In this document: piece by piece, positions 1,133 through 64,000 of the stretch | How the letters are laid out: the number at the start of each line of letters is the position of its first letter | Numbering within the stretch: position 1 is the stretch's first letter | Assembly: GCA_963514005.1 (NCBI GenBank) | Contig: OY740810.1 | Coordinates: 496,001-560,000 of the forward strand | DNA length: 64,000 bases | Origin: Raja brachyura | Lineage: Eukaryota | Direction: 5' to 3' | The notes under the pieces: generated by a model | What the model saw: only the letters and a program-made list of their open reading frames with translations | The model's database searches: none | What the model was told of the DNA's origin: nothing | Translations under genes and position numbers: made by a program

Positions 1133-1362
1133 TGTGTAGCAAGGAACTGCAGATGCTGGTTTAAACCGAAGATAGACACAAAAAGCTGGAGTTAGTCAGC
1201 GGGACAGGTAGCATCTCTGGAGAAAAGGTGACATTTCGGGTCGAGACCCTTCTTCAGACTCCTTCTTCTGTCTGAAGATAGGTCTCGACCAGAAACATCA
1301 CATATTCGTTTTCCAAGATGCTGCGTGACCCACTGAGCTACTCCAGTGTTTTGGGTCTATCT
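1133..1362. mobile_element. Fold-back (inverted) pair of Penelope-like pLTR ends with hammerhead-like motifs
   Basis: Left arm ...ggtgacatttcgggtcgagacccttcttcagac is followed by the inverted arm tctgaagataggtctcgaccagaaacatcac...gatgctgcgtgacccactgagctactccag. Confidence 0.7.
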
Positions 1363-25285: not shown

Positions 25286-26196
25286 AGGTAGACACAAAAT
25301 GCTGGAGTAATTCAGCGGGAAAGGCAGCATCTCTGGAGAGAAGGAATGGGTGACGTTTCGGGTCGAGACCCTTCTTCAGACTGATGTCAGGGGAGTGGGC
25401 GGGACAGACATAGAATGTAGTCGGAGACAGTAAGACTGGTGGGAGAACTGGGAAGGGGGAGGGGATAGAGAGAGAGGTGAGGCAAGGGCTATTTGAATTT
25501 AGAGAAGTCAATGTTCATACTGCTGAAGTGTGCTACCCAAGTGAAATATGAGGTGATGTTCCTCCAATTTGCGCTGGGCCTCACTCTGACAATGAAGAAA
25601 GGTCAGAATGGGAATGGGAAGGGAGTTAAAGTGCTGAGCAACCGGGCGATCAGGTAGGTTAAGGCGGATTGAGCGGAGGTGTTCTGCGACATGATCACCG
25701 AACCAGCGCCTGGTTTCGCTGATGTATAGAAGTTGAAATCTGAAACAGTCATACAGTAGATGAGGTTGGAAGAGGTGCTCGTGAACCTCTGCCTCACCTG
25801 AAAAGACTGTCGAGGTCCTTGGATGGAGTCGAGCAGGGAGGTAAAGGGACAGGTGTTGCATCTCCTGCGGTTGCAGGGGAATGTTCCTGGGGAGGGGGTG
25901 GTTTGGGTGGGAAGAGACAAGTTGACCAGGGAGTTGCGAAGGGAATGGTCTCTGCGGAAAGCGGAAAGGGGTGGAGATGAGAAGATGTGGCCCATAGTGG
26001 GAACCTGTTGGAGGTGGTGAAAATGTTGCAGGATTATATGCTGCATGTGACGGCTGATGGGGTGGAAGCTGAGGACAAGGGGAACTCTGCCCTTGTTGCG
26101 AATGGGGGAGGGGGAGCAAGAGTGGAGTTGCGGGATATCGAGGAGACCCTAGTGAGAGCCTCATCTATAATGGAAGAGGGGAACCCCTGTTTCCTC
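25286..26196 (-). mobile_element. Penelope-like element 3' part (GIY-YIG endonuclease remnant + pLTR)
   Basis: FRRDHSLRNSLV..GTFPCNRRRCNTCP..FTSTSSNLIYC / LLYISET..EHLRSIR..VAQHFN; 12-bp TSD accttccattga at 25274-25285 and 26197-26208. Confidence 0.9.
25348..25384 (-). ncRNA. Minimal type-I hammerhead ribozyme motif in the Penelope pLTR
   Basis: Minus strand CUGAAGA-A-GGGUC UC GACCC-GAAAC-GUC: core boxes, stem II and palindromic ACGU stem III; stem I only about 2 bp in this copy; activity untested. Confidence 0.6.
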
Positions 26197-54107: not shown

Positions 54108-54298
54108 AACCTTTCCTACTTCACAACAGGACTAAATTACAAATCAAAAATAAAATGTTAGGAATGTGAAATAAAAAACACAAATGCTGTGAACAGCAAG
54201 CAGGACAAGCAGTGCCTGTGGGGAGAGAAGCCGTCAGTGTTTCAGGTGCTTGTGTATAGATATCAGAAGAGGATCAACAGCCAAGAGTGTTTTATTGT

Positions 54299-54516
54299 GG
54301 GTTACAAAAAGCTGGAGAAACTCAGCGGGTGCAGCAGCATCTAAGGAGCGAAGGAGATAGGCGACGTTTCGGGTCGAGACCCTTCTTCAGACCCGAAACG
54401 TCGACCCGAAACGTCGCCTATCTCCTTCGCTCCTTAGATGCTGCTGCACCCGCTGAGTTTCTCCAGCTTTTTGTGTAACCCTCGATTCTCCAGCATCTGC
54501 AGTTCCTTCTTTAACA
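54299..54516. mobile_element. 218-bp fold-back Penelope pLTR-only element with hammerhead motif
   Basis: Arms 54299-54377 and 54401-54481 are inverted (one 2-bp indel); 17-bp TSD caagagtgttttattgt at 54282-54298 and 54517-54533. Confidence 0.9.
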
Positions 54517-55834
54517 CAAGAGTGTTTTATTGTCATGTGTCCCAGATAGAACAATGCCATTTTTACTTGCTGCAGCACAACACAATATGTAAACATAGCA
54601 CACTGTAAACAATTTGATAAACGAGAGAGAAAAGAAAGTTCCGTATGTATACCATCCATTGTTGAGTATCTCAGGCTCTCGCTTCAGATAGGATAAAAAT
54701 ATTGCAACATCTGCTGGAACGACCAATCAATACCAAGCACTCATGAAACATCCATGAAACTGTAGAATCATGGCAAATCTTCACTTTCACTTCCTTACTC
54801 CTTTAATGTCTGAAATCTCCTTCAGTCTGACATCTCTCATCTTTTTACACCTCTAAAAAGGTCCAACTAGGGCCACTCCTTCAGATGTCTTCTCCCTATT
54901 TCTGAAAATCCACTTCCCAGCTCTGAAATTCTCTGTGAAACACATGAAAGGAGCAGCATAAATGCTGAGTCTTTCATGAAAGGATTTAATGTTGGCATTT
55001 GGCTAGATTATCCAAAAAGAAACAATGCAGACTATTATTAATATGTTTGTTTGCCAGCAATGGAAGATTATTTCTCTGAGTTATAAATCATTACAATTTT
55101 AGGAAAAGTTTGCACACCTCCATAGTTAGTTTGATGAAAATTAGGTCAAAGTTTTCACAAAGTTGCAGCTCTTGTCCATCCATGGCCCATTAAACCCATC
55201 CGCAGAAAGTTAAATCTGGTCGTTAATAAAGTAAGTATCCTTTTAATGGCATGGTAATTGTTAATGACCTCCAATCAACTTTTCTTGCCTGCAAAGTGAG
55301 TAATTAAAGGTGTGAAGATGTGGAACAAATTGGTTTTGGAGATTTTATTAACGTGTTAAAATTGTTATCTTTATTTCATTTCACTTTCTACCTCTTTACT
55401 TGCACTATTTTCAATTATTTTCTCCTTTATTTCTCTAAAACCGCCCATTCTAACAATTTGCTTTTCAATCCTTCCTATGATTATTTTTAAATTCTTAAAC
55501 CTCTGTTGAGGAGCCAAGTTGTCCTGTTTGTTGCAGCAGGAGACCACACTCCCAGCAAGCCTCAGTAAAACATGCCTTCAATTGTGTTTGGAGGCACGAC
55601 TGATTAACAGGGATACACAGAGATGCGATGCTGCAGCCAAGTGCCTCTAGGGACACATTCTCGTGCCTTTGGCTGGCGGCTTGTTGTGTAGGAACCCCTG
55701 TAACAGATCAAGTTAATTAACATTTCCCCTGCCTGTCGACATTTTAAAAAGCAAGATTGCAATAGTTTTTTATGCATCCTTCTACATGGAAGACCTGTGT
55801 GAATCTCTGAGCTGATTTTAGAACATGGAGACAG

Positions 55835-56910: not shown

Positions 56911-58213
56911 ATTTCTGCGAGGGAAATTCACACCAGGTTGGGACCAAGTTTACTGAGCCGGGCAAGTGCTGCCATGAAGACTTGGGCCATTGCAATCTTC
57001 AAGACCAATAGTGCAAGGTGCCAGCAATGCTTGAAAGTAGCAGCAAGGAGAGTTAAAGAAAAGCACCAAGCCTGGGCTGGAACTGTCTGTAGACTGCTAG
57101 AAGAAAGAATATTTGTAAAATGCAAGAAAATCCAGTGAGTTTCTGGGGCTGGTCTTAGAGTCATCGAGTGACACAGCATGGAAACAGGCCCTTCGGCCCA
57201 ACTTGCCCACACTGACCAACATGTCCCATCTACACTAGTGGTGTATAGTACATGAAGGGAGACGTAGAGCAAGTTGTGTGACAGAATACTAAAGATGGAT
57301 AATACCAGGTACTGTGGGATGAAATTATAGATTAAAGTTATTCACAAGTAGATGATTTATTCAACTAATAATAGGAAAGTAATTTATGATATGAATTTAA
57401 TTGGGGCAAGTAGTTGGCGGATTATTTATTTGAAATGTAGTTGCTGCTGTTTTCCTTTTGGAAAGGAAAGGGTGCCCAGAAACCTGACAGAAACAGGAAA
57501 TTATTGGTTAACCATTCTTCCTGATGTTACTTGAGTGAGATCCAGCATGATAGCATGATAGCATGAGATGTTTCCAAATATAACTTTGGTTGCTAACTTC
57601 ATGTTAAGAACTCCATTTTTCATACCAATTATAACCACGACTGACTTCCCTGCCCAATGTTGTCCTTTAGAATAGTCTATACTGAGTGCAGATGCATACT
57701 TGCACATGCTCCTGTTACTTATCTCAGATGTACACGGCACATTCAGTGCCAACAGAGGTGAATGGCCTTGCGTTATTATATTGTCAACTGGGATAAAAGC
57801 AGGCAATGAAAGATATGTGTTGCTATTTTTTATAACAGCTAGAGATTTTCCTCTTCTTGGAATGAAAACAGAAACATATGTTGACAAATTGAAATTGATG
57901 TTTCTGAGGTTTCTGTAGCTGAGTTCCTGTCCATCCTTTTGGAGGGTGGAAAATCCCATGGGAATAATTGGAGAGGAGTAGAGGAGATTCTGGGCCCACC
58001 TCCCCAATATGTGTTCCCCTCAATATTAATCCTTTCATAATTTACAATAAAATGGCTGATTTGTTGCCGTTGCTATTTGGGGATAATCTTGCATTGCAAA
58101 TTGTCAAATACATTTCCATTTGGAGAAACAGCTTTAGCTATTAGGCTCAGTTATCCAGTACATTGACAGGTCATGAAAGGTGCCATATAAAAGCAAACCT
58201 TTCCCTTTCCCTC

Positions 58214-58305
58214 GGGGGTTACACAAAAAGCTGGAGAAACTGAGCGGGTGCAGCAGCAGCTAAGGAGCGAAGGAGATAGGCGAAGTTTCGGGTCGAGACC
58301 CTTCT
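58214..58305 (-). mobile_element. 92-bp pLTR monomer, same subfamily as 54299
   Basis: Near-identical to the 54299 left arm; 14-bp TSD tttccctttccctc at 58200-58213 and 58306-58319. Confidence 0.85.
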
Positions 58306-58467
58306 TTTCCCTTTCCCTCCATTTGCTTTCAATTTCTGCCCATTGGTACTGTGAACCCTGCAATTTTAACGGTCCAGCTGATACTAAAGTGAGGTATTGA
58401 ATGGTGTCACAAATCTATTGATGAGGCCACTGTGCTGAATCAGGGTTCTCTACACCATTGAATGACA

Positions 58468-58790
58468 GACACAAAGTGCTGGAGTAACTCAGCGGGTCAG
58501 GCAGCATCTGTGGAGAGCATGGATAGGTGACGTTTCACAGAGTGCTGGAGTAACTCAGTGGGTCAGGCAGCATCTGTGGAGAACATGGATAGGTGACGTT
58601 TCACAGAGTGCTGGAGTAACTCAGCGGGTCAGGCAGCATCTGTGGAGAACATGGATAGGTGACGTTTCACAGAGTGCTGGAGTAACTCAGCGGGTCAGGC
58701 AGCATCTGTGGAGAACATGGATAGGTGACGTTTCACAGAGTGCTGGAGTAACTCAGCGGGTCAGGCAGCATCTGTGGAGAGAAGGAATGG
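58468..58790 (-). repeat. About 5 x 66-bp tandem array of the Penelope pLTR 3' segment
   Basis: ggagtaactcag recurs at 58481, 58547, 58613, 58679, 58745; units nearly identical. Confidence 0.95.
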
Positions 58791-60469
58791 GGAAGGAATT
58801 CTTTACACCATCCCTGCCAGCATTGCTCAGTATACAGCAGTGATATTAAACCATTGACGTGTTATGAAGAATGTTATTGCACACCTGCTAGAGCTTTCAA
58901 AATCATTATAAAACTTTCCCTGTGTACTGAAGTGGAATATTAGTCTGGGCAGTGCAACAGTAATTACTATCTGCTGCCTGGAGCATTCAAGGTGCCAGTG
59001 TTGCTTAAACACTGCAGCGAGAACAGTTGTTGTGACAGATGCCAAGTCCAAATGTTGCACGTCAGCTTTCATTCTCTTAGTGATCGAAAACTTGCACATG
59101 TACTGCTTCTCAAATGAAGCAAGGAAATAATTACCATGGCTTCTCCCAATCACCCCTCAGCCTTGTGTGATTGCCCATGTCTTTTTAAGTATTCTCACCA
59201 ATGGTTGCAAGCACCTCACCGATGTGAAACATTAGCAAGGAAACGGAATTGAACACTCTTCTAAAGATAATTACCTGAACGCTGCATTGCAAAGAGCAGA
59301 TAAATGGAAGCTTTAACTCTTTCAAAATGATTCACCCTTTGGCAATGTAGGGAATAGCAGTTTAGTCTGTGCTGTCAATCCACTGTGTCAGTAGAGTTGT
59401 TGTGAACTTTTTCTCTTCTCATGTACACACTGACACTGTGCCAATGATCTGATTAACTTCATCATGAATTAGTGTTTATGTGTGAGCCCAGTCAGTCCAG
59501 TCCAATCCCACCATTATTCATACACAACAGTCAGAAACTATAAATCCACAGTATGAACCCTTCTGATTTTGCTCCCAATTTTCTAGCAGTGTTTTGGTTT
59601 TCTGTTGTAATCAGATCCTGCCCTGAACTCCATTCCCGAGCAATGAACTCCATCCCTGTCCCAGGCAACCGCTTTATGAAGACAAATCTAAACATAAGAA
59701 CATGCCAATTAGGAACAACATTAGCCACTTACCCACTCCCATCAAATCATGGCTGATCTGATTGCAGCCATAACTACAATTCTTATCCTGATCTTATCTG
59801 CCTCTTTAAGGAGGCGAATTCCAAGACTCACATCCCGCTGGGGGAAAAACAATCACCTCATCTGTTGTAAGTGAGTGACCCTTTGGCTGGCTGCTGTACT
59901 CCCACCTGACCACTGTGTCATGCCCCCAAGGTCAGTTATAACCGTGTTCTATTTAACCTCACAATGTGGTTCCCTCTGCATTTCAGCACCATCACTAAGA
60001 TGAAATGATCTCTAGGTCTGACCCACTGTGTGAGGGCAACTATATCTGTGACTAGTGGGCTATTGATACATAACTTTATCTTCATGTTCATGATATAATA
60101 CGTTCTGCAAGACCAGTTGACCAATGCCTTTGTGCAATAGAATGCTTTATTTCCCAGCCTAACATTCCAGAGTGTACATAGTGATGTGAATATTATCTGG
60201 ACCAGATATTTTAGTGACAGTGACACTCACATACATTAGTGGCACACATCAATAGCACATTATAAATAACCAATCAACTCAATGTTCAATAATATAGATT
60301 GATGTAATACAGGGACTGCAAGAAGGGGAAGGTGGTATTTGTTAATAGCGTTAGGGATACTAAGGTACAGGATAATTTTTTTCAGTCTCAGATACCTGTT
60401 GATGTTACAACTGTTGCTGATCAATACTACTGTTGATGATCAATACTACTGTTGATCAACATGTGGTTG

Positions 60470-61641: not shown

Positions 61642-61730
61642 GGTTACACAAAAAGCTGGAGAAACTCAGCGGGTGCAGCAGCATCTAAGGAGCGAAGGAG
61701 ATAGGCGACGTTTCAGGTTGAGACTCTTCT
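61642..61730 (-). mobile_element. pLTR monomer, same subfamily as 54299 and 58214
   Basis: ggttacacaaaaagctggagaaactcagcgggtgcagcagcatctaaggagcgaaggagataggcgacgtttc. Confidence 0.85.
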
Positions 61731-62103: not shown

Positions 62104-63188
62104 TTGCTACACAGCACAGAGCCAGCGCCATTAGGGCGTAAGGCACCTGAAAGGTCTGCTAGGCCCACGGAGTTGGGGGATGATTCCTCACCGGGGCTGG
62201 ATAGAGTGTGTTCACGCCTATCCCAAGTGGAGGAGCTGTTGCATACAGTCCTCCAGAAAACTTCACTCCAGGAGAAGGAGTGTCAGCGCCACTCAGAGCC
62301 AGAGGCGCCAGCAGCAACAGTGCTGCCAGATAACCCCTTCACTTTTGTGGGGAGTGCAATGGGTCAGATCAGTCCTGACCCTGAATCTGATGGGGAGATC
62401 CAGCCAGGAGAAACAGTGGACTTACCAGATGTTCCACCACTGGCAGTACCATTTGCTGTCCCATCAAGAGCAGGGGAGCCGTTAGGTGAAGAGCTGGCCG
62501 CCACAATAAATTATATGGTTTCTCACCAGCTCCAGGAGCTCACTATGGATGAGACAGCCAAAAAACATGAGCCTCCAAGTAACTCATATGGGGTCAGATG
62601 GGACCCAGCATGCAAAGTCAAGAGATTAAGATGCAGAGGGTCCTAAAATTATTGGTCTCTGGCATTATGGTATTCACAAGAACAATGGAGGGTGGTGATG
62701 TGACCAGAACGCATCAAGAGGCTTTGGGGTTGCTATGTAGCACCCATTTTGAGATTAATTGTATCAGAAAAAGGGCTATTAGACCCACCATTAATCCCAG
62801 ATTTGCTGCGCTTTGCAAGCCAACAAATATCCAGCCATCCAATCTATTGTTTGGCGCAGACCTTACCAAGCAGGTCAAAGAGATAAATGAAGAAGCAAAA
62901 ACAATGAGCCTGATAAGACCAATGTTGACCGGCAGACCACTGAAGAGGAAGTATCCTTACAGAACCACCTCAGCGTCCGGGGCTACACCAGGGACAAGCC
63001 GGTCCTCAGCGCAGGGGCGCGGATGGTATCCTTCAACTGGAGCACGAGCAACCATGGGGGCCACTGCCAGAGGCTGGGGTCAGCAGGGCGCACCAGTTAC
63101 CAGAGAGGTAGGTGGGCCTGGTTCTCATAAAAACATATTAAGTGTAACACAGGAAAAAGTTGGTGGTAGATTATGGCTTTTTTTATGA
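62104..63188 (+). pseudogene. DIRS ORF1 (gag-like), frameshifted
   Basis: ORFs 62104-62646 and 62598-63188 (..IRKRAIRPTINPRFAALC..LFGADL); homologous to 6288-6608. Confidence 0.8.
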
Positions 63189-64000
63189 AGAATGGAAGTA
63201 GCTTACTTCAGATCTGTTTATCAGGAGTGCGATTCAAGGGTTTCGGATTGAATTTAACCCAAATGGTGATTTACCTCTCCAACATGTCCCTAGCAGAACA
63301 CTTTATTTTTCACAAACAGAGGTAATAGAGGTTCAGGCTGAACTTGAAAAATTGTGCAACAAAGGAGTAATTGAGAAGACGATTCATCAAGTCCGTCAAT
63401 TTGTGTCAAATATATTTTGCCGGCCCAAAAAGGATGGAGGATGCAGAATCATTTTGGACCTTACAAAGTTAAATCCATTTGTACTCTATAGACACTTCAA
63501 AATGGAAACGTTGGTTACCGCCAAGCAACTGATTTCCAGAGGTTGTTATATGGCAACCATAGATCTGAAAGACGCTTACTACTCAGTGCCTGTTCATTGC
63601 GAGCATGGAAAGTATTTTAAAATTTATTTGGATTTATCAATTATGGCAGTTTAAGGCACTGCCGAATGGTTTAACCTCAGCTCCTAGAGTATTCACTAAA
63701 TTGTTAAAACCAATTTTGGGGCTACTTAGAGGTCAGGGCCATGTAATTATGGCCTATCTGGATGATATTTTAATTATCGGACAAACGAGAGAATTAGCTG
63801 AAACATCAGTGGCATTTGTCAAATTCACACTTGAAAAACTGGGGTTTGTCATTCATTTGGGAAAATCTAAATTGACACCAATTACCACAATTGATTATTA
63901 GGGTTTCACAATTGACTCACTTAAAATGGTAATTACTTTGCCCAGGGAGAAAAGTGTAGAGCTAATTGATGATTGTATAAAACATTTAAACAAACACCAA
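63150..64000 (+). pseudogene. DIRS reverse transcriptase, disrupted
   Basis: VGGRL, FVSNIFCRPKKDGGCRIILDL, HFKMET, IDLKDAYYSVP, QFKALPNGLTSAPRVFTK, YLDDILI; frameshift near 63620-63640 and stop at 63899-63901. Confidence 0.92.

What the first reader, a model, noticed from the sequence alone, without database searches (positions are those of the whole stretch)
54282..54533. 218-bp hairpin mini-element with 17-bp TSD, intact hammerhead motif and 35-nt tail
Seen: ~80-bp near-perfect inverted arms. The minus strand reads gggu-CUGAAGA-A-gggucucgaccc-GAAAC-GUC-gccu, so a 4-bp stem I (with GU pairs) can form, the most complete hammerhead here. The centre has a tandem gacccgaaacgtc. Only the right arm carries a 35-nt extension (54482-54516). 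Sister monomers at 58214 (14-bp TSD) and 61642 stop where that extension begins. Inference: a young, protein-free, ribozyme-bearing mobile unit (retrozyme-like) moved by PLE machinery, with three copies within 8 kb.
Basis: partly seen in the sequence, partly recalled or inferred. Interest (0 to 1): 0.7.

Follow-up and report, generated by a model that had tools for sequence, protein, structure and literature searches.

The report
Twin-primed Penelope retrotransposon hairpin stub
This 218-base hairpin is one of thousands of stubs left in this genome by a Penelope-type jumping gene, likely built afresh at each insertion when both cut DNA strands copy the front end of the element's RNA from two fixed start points, which would explain the long-puzzling one-sided "tail" of these elements; its ribozyme motif is predicted to be a trapped passenger.

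Summary
In detail: 218-bp insert, exact 17-bp TSD, inverted arms, hammerhead core, one-sided 35-nt tail. It is not an independent retrozyme. Both arms are the terminal repeat of a 3,965-bp Neptune-type Penelope-like element (PLE) with RT and GIY-YIG domains. The genome holds 36,883 exact core copies and at least 2,835 hairpins, but this exact centre occurs at only 2 loci, so hairpins look built anew each time. The 4-bp stem I is a junction accident, and the hammerhead fold costs 35 kcal/mol inside the hairpin. What is informative is the population. Of 2,418 hairpins, 19 carry a tail on both arms, against about 530 expected by chance. Either arm can be the incomplete one. About two-thirds of copies stop within about 10 nt just upstream of the hammerhead, often with an extra G. 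Best reading: both target nicks prime at the two internal RT start sites known in vitro, and the cDNAs run to the RNA's 5' end and are joined. Known architecture; the statistics make its mechanism testable.

The parts
54282..54298 (.). left target-site duplication (17 bp)
54299..54392 (-). tail-less arm: positions +2 to +97 of the inferred PLE RNA (pLTR), with one 2-nt deletion; outer end at start site 1
   Evidence: alignment to the parent copy in L088
54363..54390 (-). minimal type I hammerhead core of the pLTR; native stem I only 2 bp; predicted sequestered in the hairpin
54390..54402 (+). junction: 3-nt microhomology between the arms plus a 13-nt tandem duplication
   Evidence: same centre at 2 loci genome-wide
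54403..54481 (+). tailed arm, pLTR part (+19 to +97), lacking the CUG core
54482..54516 (+). 35-nt tail (+98 to +132), the start of the element body in the parent; outer end at start site 2
54517..54533 (.). right target-site duplication (17 bp)
58214..58305 (-). sister tail-less monomer with 14-bp TSD (58200-58213, 58306-58319), lacking the CUG core
61642..61730 (-). sister tail-less monomer, no TSD seen, lacking the CUG core
25292..26164 (-). 5'-truncated PLE of an older subfamily: zinc-finger linker and GIY-YIG-like ORF end followed by the pLTR with hammerhead
   Evidence: motifs read by eye, no Pfam hit on these fragments
1141..1353 (.). older-subfamily hairpin with a tail on one arm only

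Best explanation
The insert is a head-to-head pair of short copies of the terminal repeat of a Neptune-type Penelope-like retrotransposon, likely assembled anew at this site by twin priming. Shown: both arms match the parent's pLTR; outer ends sit at two fixed positions (+97 and +132); centres vary; hairpins almost always have exactly one tailed arm; short copies end in a narrow zone just 5' of the hammerhead. Inferred: the PLE protein nicks both strands about 14-17 bp apart. One 3' end primes at +97 and the other at +132 on the 5' end of the PLE RNA, probably the same molecule, with the +132 enzyme trailing and displacing the first cDNA. Each cDNA runs toward the RNA's 5' end (probably a capped start site) and the two are joined by microhomology. 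Keeping both gives a hairpin; keeping one gives a tailed or tail-less monomer. The hammerhead is a passenger and the hairpin a dead end.
For: Parent: four complete 3,965-bp tandem units on C18 with RT, CX4CXXC linker and GIY-YIG motifs (Pfam RVT_1 and GIY-YIG below curated cut-offs). One-tail rule: 47 of 50 hairpins selected without regard to tails have one tail, 1 has two, 2 none. Genome-wide, 2,263 tailed arms in 2,418 hairpins but 19 two-tailed hairpins, against about 530 expected. Either arm can be incomplete: at the centre the tailed arm is longer in 20 and the tail-less arm in 19 of 46. A short inverted tail remnant before a complete unit occurs at 239 loci, and the unit is tail-less in 29 of 30. 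In the reciprocal set 29 of 30 obey the same rule, and the short arm is the tailed one in 23 of 30 by script, 24 by eye. 14 of 30 remnants stop within -3 to +4 of site 1. Arms share subfamily variants: 25 on both arms against 7 on one. 5' end: exact counts fall from 31,959 (+3) to 22,245 (+1), 11,733 (-3) and 9,216 (-8); non-element base before +1 is G 2,356 times against A+T 2,108. TSDs in 72 of 75 hairpins, median 14 bp. In vitro, a lizard PLE nicks and extends both strands and starts at two internal sites bounding the tail (PMC11167929).
Against: No RNA 5' end, transcript or cleavage was observed; the runs offered were contigs only. Centre asymmetry could partly come from deletion or inversion after insertion. 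The stop peak at site 1 coincides with microhomology to the unit's 5' end. Shared variants cannot separate one RNA from two RNAs of one source, or from later gene conversion; two-tailed hairpins were only weakly more discordant (6 shared, 5 single). The 5' end is spread over about 6-10 nt, and many copies keep C at -1. The extra G abutted a recognisable TSD in only 6 of 30 loci (5 not target-derived). The in vitro element is a Poseidon, not a Neptune.
Confidence: 0.72

Rival explanations
1. Fold-back self-priming: one cDNA (or an antisense RNA) folds back and copies itself, and endonuclease resolution trims the second arm at the tail boundary, as proposed in PMC3846280 and PMC8557442.
For: Explains arms that share variants, near-palindromic centres and the one-sided tail.
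Against: It predicts that the tailed arm is always at least as long. The tail-less arm is longer in 19 of 39 unequal centres, and 239 loci have only a tail remnant before a complete tail-less unit. The central base of perfect centres follows either arm (5 against 3). One locus has both arms ending in G around about 150 nt of foreign DNA (L046/L047).
Confidence: 0.13
2. One reading: a non-autonomous retrozyme-like unit that is transcribed, self-cleaves or circularises, and is remobilised whole by PLE protein.
For: Discrete size class and tens of thousands of copies; intact hammerhead core; retrozymes derive from pLTRs (bioRxiv 10.64898/2026.07.22.740005). Re-amplification of tailed monomers is not excluded.
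Against: This centre at 2 loci. The variants of short copies also occur in 53 upstream-attached copies (6, 3 and 1). The hammerhead fold is 10.5 and 35 kcal/mol above the minimum. Only 4 of 30 tandem junctions end at the cleavage site, 3 of them explained by microhomology. The one hairpin seen amplified as a unit rides inside a DNA transposon.
Confidence: 0.07
3. The sharp 5' end is a reverse-transcriptase stall at the folded hammerhead on a long read-through RNA, not an RNA end; arms are then joined as in the best explanation.
For: The stop zone coincides with the 5' edge of the hammerhead and is several bases wide.
Against: G excess before +1, also at internal template-jump junctions (8 of 17 informative among 30), and an initiator-like sequence at +1 (consensus recalled).
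Confidence: 0.08

Closest known systems
Insertion units of endonuclease-positive PLEs with inverted 5'-truncated pLTR and one-sided 30-40 bp tail (PMC8557442 Fig. 2 legend; Pen2a_Av in PMC3846280)
   Same: Head-to-head pLTR copies, optional tail at one end, TSD, hammerhead in the pLTR.
   Different: Here the ORF-less minimum form is the bulk product, in thousands of copies, and the one-tail rule and fixed 5' zone are quantified; those papers invoke self-priming or endonuclease resolution.
Poseidon element of Anolis carolinensis in vitro (PMC11167929)
   Same: Both strands nicked and extended; two internal RT start sites bounding the tail; hammerhead cleavage not needed.
   Different: Neptune-type linker here; that paper saw no strand difference in start site and, in the parts read, does not treat hairpin insertions.
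L1 twin priming (recalled, not from a call)
   Same: Second nick primes on the RNA and gives an inversion joined by microhomology.
   Different: L1 gives non-overlapping segments from a random internal site; here both sites are fixed and the same 95 nt are copied twice.
Non-LTR retrozymes (bioRxiv 10.64898/2026.07.22.740005) and minimal PLE hammerheads (PMC4209133)
   Same: pLTR-derived, non-coding, minimal type I hammerhead with palindromic helix III.
   Different: Not a head-to-tail tandem of hammerhead units; only one arm has a core, and it is predicted to be sequestered.

Membership tests
Endonuclease-positive PLE insertion (Neptune type) | pLTR continuous with an RT + C-terminal GIY-YIG ORF | tested here: met
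   (Pfam E 5e-4 and 1e-3, below curated cut-offs; YIDD and GIY-YIG motifs read directly)
Endonuclease-positive PLE insertion (Neptune type) | CX2-5CXXC linker between RT and EN | tested here: met
   CX4CXXC motif in the ORF; criterion from PMC8557442
Endonuclease-positive PLE insertion (Neptune type) | RT phylogeny within Neptune | not tested
   no reference PLE set was fetched and no tree was built
Endonuclease-positive PLE insertion (Neptune type) | partial tandems, inverted pLTR, one-sided 30-40 bp tail, TSD | tested here: met
Non-LTR retrozyme | head-to-tail tandem with a complete hammerhead in at least two consecutive units | tested here: not met
   head-to-head pair with one core
Non-LTR retrozyme | propagation as a unit of fixed structure | tested here: not met
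   variable centres; this centre at 2 loci
Non-LTR retrozyme | self-cleavage and circular RNA | not testable with these tools
   only contigs offered; folding disfavours the hammerhead
Minimal type I hammerhead | conserved core, helix II, palindromic helix III | tested here: met
   against PMC4209133; no Rfam hammerhead match in the window
Minimal type I hammerhead | 4-5 bp helix I | tested here: inconclusive
   4 bp only through the junction; 2 bp in the parent, a length PMC4209133 reports for D. virilis
MITE (non-autonomous DNA transposon) | symmetric terminal inverted repeats and short fixed TSD | tested here: not met
   one-sided tail; TSD mostly 10-18 bp

The most novel reading that the evidence does not exclude
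Every insertion of this PLE starts as one protein dimer on one RNA priming both nicks in two fixed registers 35 nt apart. The 'optional tail' of PLEs records which cDNA survived. About two-thirds of all copies are strong-stop cDNAs of the first 97-132 nt of a capped mRNA, with the cap copied as an extra G. This would give PLEs a defined integration mechanism readable from genome statistics and replace the antisense self-priming model.
Probability: 0.45. Interest if true: 0.65.

Novelty: new member of a known kind. Interest (0 to 1): 0.42.

Why it matters
How PLEs make inverted pseudo-LTRs and a one-sided tail is still open: PMC8557442 calls for mechanistic work, and PMC11167929 leaves the steps after initiation unvalidated. 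Thousands of young, minimal insertions act as a natural experiment. The near-absence of two-tailed hairpins (19 against about 530) means the two priming events are coordinated, which gives sharp predictions for the existing in vitro system. It also warns annotators that such hairpins are neither MITEs nor retrozymes. The single locus itself is an ordinary transposon scar.

Tried and rejected
Rfam scan: no hammerhead family match, one chance miRNA hit. Pfam on the window's older ORF fragments: nothing. Hammerhead cleavage site as a junction hot spot: 4 of 30, rejected; the commonest boundary is +37/+38, 11 of 30. Splice acceptor as cause of the sharp 5' end: rejected, because no shared exon precedes short copies and 22,245 of 31,959 keep the AG. 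Discordance of two-tailed hairpins as proof of one RNA: too weak. Tail-to-tail pairs around a short spacer: 17 loci, 16 mixed, but the pattern selects for mixed pairs and no control pattern was run, so it is not counted as evidence. RNA evidence: runs were contigs, some probably DNA; loose ends pile up at the same 5' position, which only repeats the genomic result. Presence/absence at this locus in other individuals: not obtained, the read-laying machine did not answer. The automatic long/short split mis-scored five ORF-attached copies at polymorphic sites, so the BLAST result (10 of 30) is used. No paper for cap copying as an extra G was found (listing only); that step is recalled.

Full report
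Observation. The insert spans 54299-54516 (218 bp) between exact 17-bp repeats. Its arms are 74 nt and fully complementary, and it folds at -165 kcal/mol with z = -21.8. The minus strand carries a complete minimal hammerhead core at 54390-54363, and only the right arm has the 35-nt extension. The target is a host repeat: the TSD plus right flank occurs 252 times, and the 3 copies fetched have no insert. The sister copies are as described. Rfam gave no hammerhead match. The repeat landscape looks like a cartilaginous fish (recalled, not tested).

Parent element. A 49-base core has 36,883 exact matches in the 2.7-Gb genome, and the reversed control has 0. Of the first 30 matches, 10 continue 500-1,500 bp upstream into an ORF end. 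Walking from one of them found a tandem on C18 with a 3,965-bp period. Each complete unit encodes RT motifs, a CX4CXXC linker and a GIY-YIG domain (Pfam hits below curated cut-offs), which is the Neptune-type layout described in PMC8557442. In this parent the 'tail' is simply the start of the element body after the pLTR. Numbering from the A three bases before hammerhead C3 as +1, the window's left arm is +2 to +97 with one 2-nt deletion, and the right arm is +19 to +132, identical at 114 of 114 bases. Of 20 further ORF-bearing copies, most are 5'-truncated and end at +97, a few at +132.

Hairpins are a class, built one at a time. A pattern blind to the ends finds 2,835 hairpins. Their centres differ widely, and this window's centre occurs at only 2 loci. 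TSDs were found in 72 of the 75 hairpins that could be parsed from 99 loci, median 14 bp. The variants seen in short copies also occur among 53 upstream-attached copies, so no lineage private to the short form was seen. An older subfamily has 1,439 hairpins by a like pattern. Of 24 fetched, 2 ride in a DNA transposon; of the other 22, a tail was detected on one arm in 16, on both in 0 and on neither in 6.

The one-tail rule. Of the first 50 hairpins, 47 have exactly one tailed arm, 1 has two and 2 have none. Genome-wide, 2,418 hairpins have both +97 ends intact, 2,263 arms among them continue into the tail, and 19 hairpins have two tails by a slightly looser pattern. Independent choice would give about 530. 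The rule also holds for lopsided products. A short inverted tail remnant directly before a complete unit occurs at 239 loci, and the unit lacks a tail in 29 of 30 examined. An inverted +97 remnant occurs at 237 loci; 29 of 30 obey the rule by script, and the short arm is the tailed one in 23 (24 by eye); two of these loci look like duplicates and two units are cut short at their 3' end. 14 of 30 tail remnants stop within -3 to +4 of +97, although microhomology favours that spot. At full hairpin centres the tailed arm is longer in 20, the tail-less arm in 19 and they are equal in 7 (one duplicate dropped). Across 108 of 118 loci (9 unparsed, 1 duplicate), three subfamily variants lie on both arms 25 times and on one arm 7 times in the one-tail class, which includes up to 4 loci from the two-tail list with short tails; the two-tail class gives 6 and 5. 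Extra G at the +97 end beyond the target (8 of 77) and a repeated AAC at the +132 end (10 of 77) suggest slippage at initiation at both ends.

The fixed 5' end. Exact matches fall from 31,959 at +3 to 22,245 at +1, 11,733 at -3 and 9,216 at -8, so roughly two-thirds of copies stop in about 10 nt. That is not random truncation. Where the base before +1 is not the element's C, it is G 2,356 times against A+T 2,108; fetched loci are 47% GC. In 6 of 30 such loci a TSD abutted the G, and in 5 the target did not supply it. G also precedes +1 at 8 of 17 informative internal tandem junctions. The sequence around +1 fits the initiator consensus, and reverse transcriptases can copy a cap as an extra G (both recalled; one search found no usable paper). 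D. virilis Penelope has an internal promoter in its pLTR (PMC2377424, passages). I infer that +1 is the RNA's start. No RNA reads were available to test it.

The ribozyme. Forcing the hammerhead stems costs 10.5 kcal/mol locally and 35 in the whole element. The cleavage site is not a preferred junction (4 of 30). Minimal PLE hammerheads cleave poorly and as dimers (PMC4209133), and cleavage was dispensable for a PLE in vitro (PMC11167929). In the retrozyme preprint 1 of 9 tested dimers cleaved.

Mechanism. Most likely both nicks prime, one at +97 and one at +132, on the 5' end of the PLE RNA. Both cDNAs run toward +1 and are joined by microhomology, sometimes with filler. Shown: ends, rule, centres, TSDs, parentage. 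Inferred: twin priming (0.72), one RNA molecule rather than two (about 0.55), capped start (about 0.65), and displacement by the trailing enzyme, which would need an RT that leaves the RNA intact (recalled). Fold-back self-priming (PMC3846280) explains the shared variants but not complete tail-less arms beside tail remnants, unless later deletion is invoked throughout.

Literature seen. PMC11167929: parts 1-2 of 4 (abstract, main text, start of methods). bioRxiv 10.64898/2026.07.22.740005: parts 1-3 of 5. PMC4209133: parts 1-2 of 4. PMC3846280: parts 1-3 of 5 plus passages. PMC8557442, PMC8969392, PMC2377424: passages. No supplements were read; those of PMC11167929 (Figs S1-S2) may bear on the start sites. 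Searches for Penelope with twin priming, hairpin/pLTR/tail, skate, recent mechanism papers and shark/Neptune showed, from listings, no paper stating the one-tail rule or twin priming for PLEs. Subscription journals and Repbase reports were not searchable. Earlier notes of this scan on other genomes reach the same idea; they are not independent support.

Verdict. A real, young PLE insertion of known architecture, not a new ribozyme element. Its value lies in the family statistics, which constrain an open mechanism. Interest 0.42.

Noticed in passing
L370, L363, L375-L384 (G000 C1): An old PLE hairpin has been amplified passively inside a roughly 680-bp element with about 50-bp terminal inverted repeats, apparently at TTAA sites (Kolobok or T2-MITE-like, recalled); about 12 of the first 50 old-subfamily hairpins are of this kind.
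   Followed up: partly
L185-L214; 598 loci: Short tandem duplications of the unit's 5' part, with the upstream copy ending most often at +37/+38 (11 of 30), 6-7 nt past the hammerhead cleavage site: a possible third re-initiation site, unexplained; the pattern's gap limit may bias this.
   Followed up: partly
L158-L174: 17 tail-to-tail pairs around a short target spacer; in some the target sequence appears three times (for example L167).
   Followed up: partly
L088-L089 (G000 C18:46361252-46377222): Tandem of four near-identical full-length PLE units; each has two overlapping reading frames (325 and 1,033 codons stop to stop), while another copy (L291) breaks at a different place.
   Followed up: partly
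L046/L047 (G000 C1:1207499-1207812): Hairpin with both arms complete, both ending in the extra G, around about 150 nt of unrelated captured DNA.
   Followed up: no
window 58470-58799: 66-bp tandem array made from an older pLTR, lacking the CUG core.
   Followed up: no
window 62583-63654: ORFs resembling a DIRS-type or LTR retrotransposon RT (motifs read by eye).
   Followed up: no
L003, L004, L007, L010, L014, L016: A C-to-A variant just after the cleavage site is often present on one arm only, unlike other variants.
   Followed up: no
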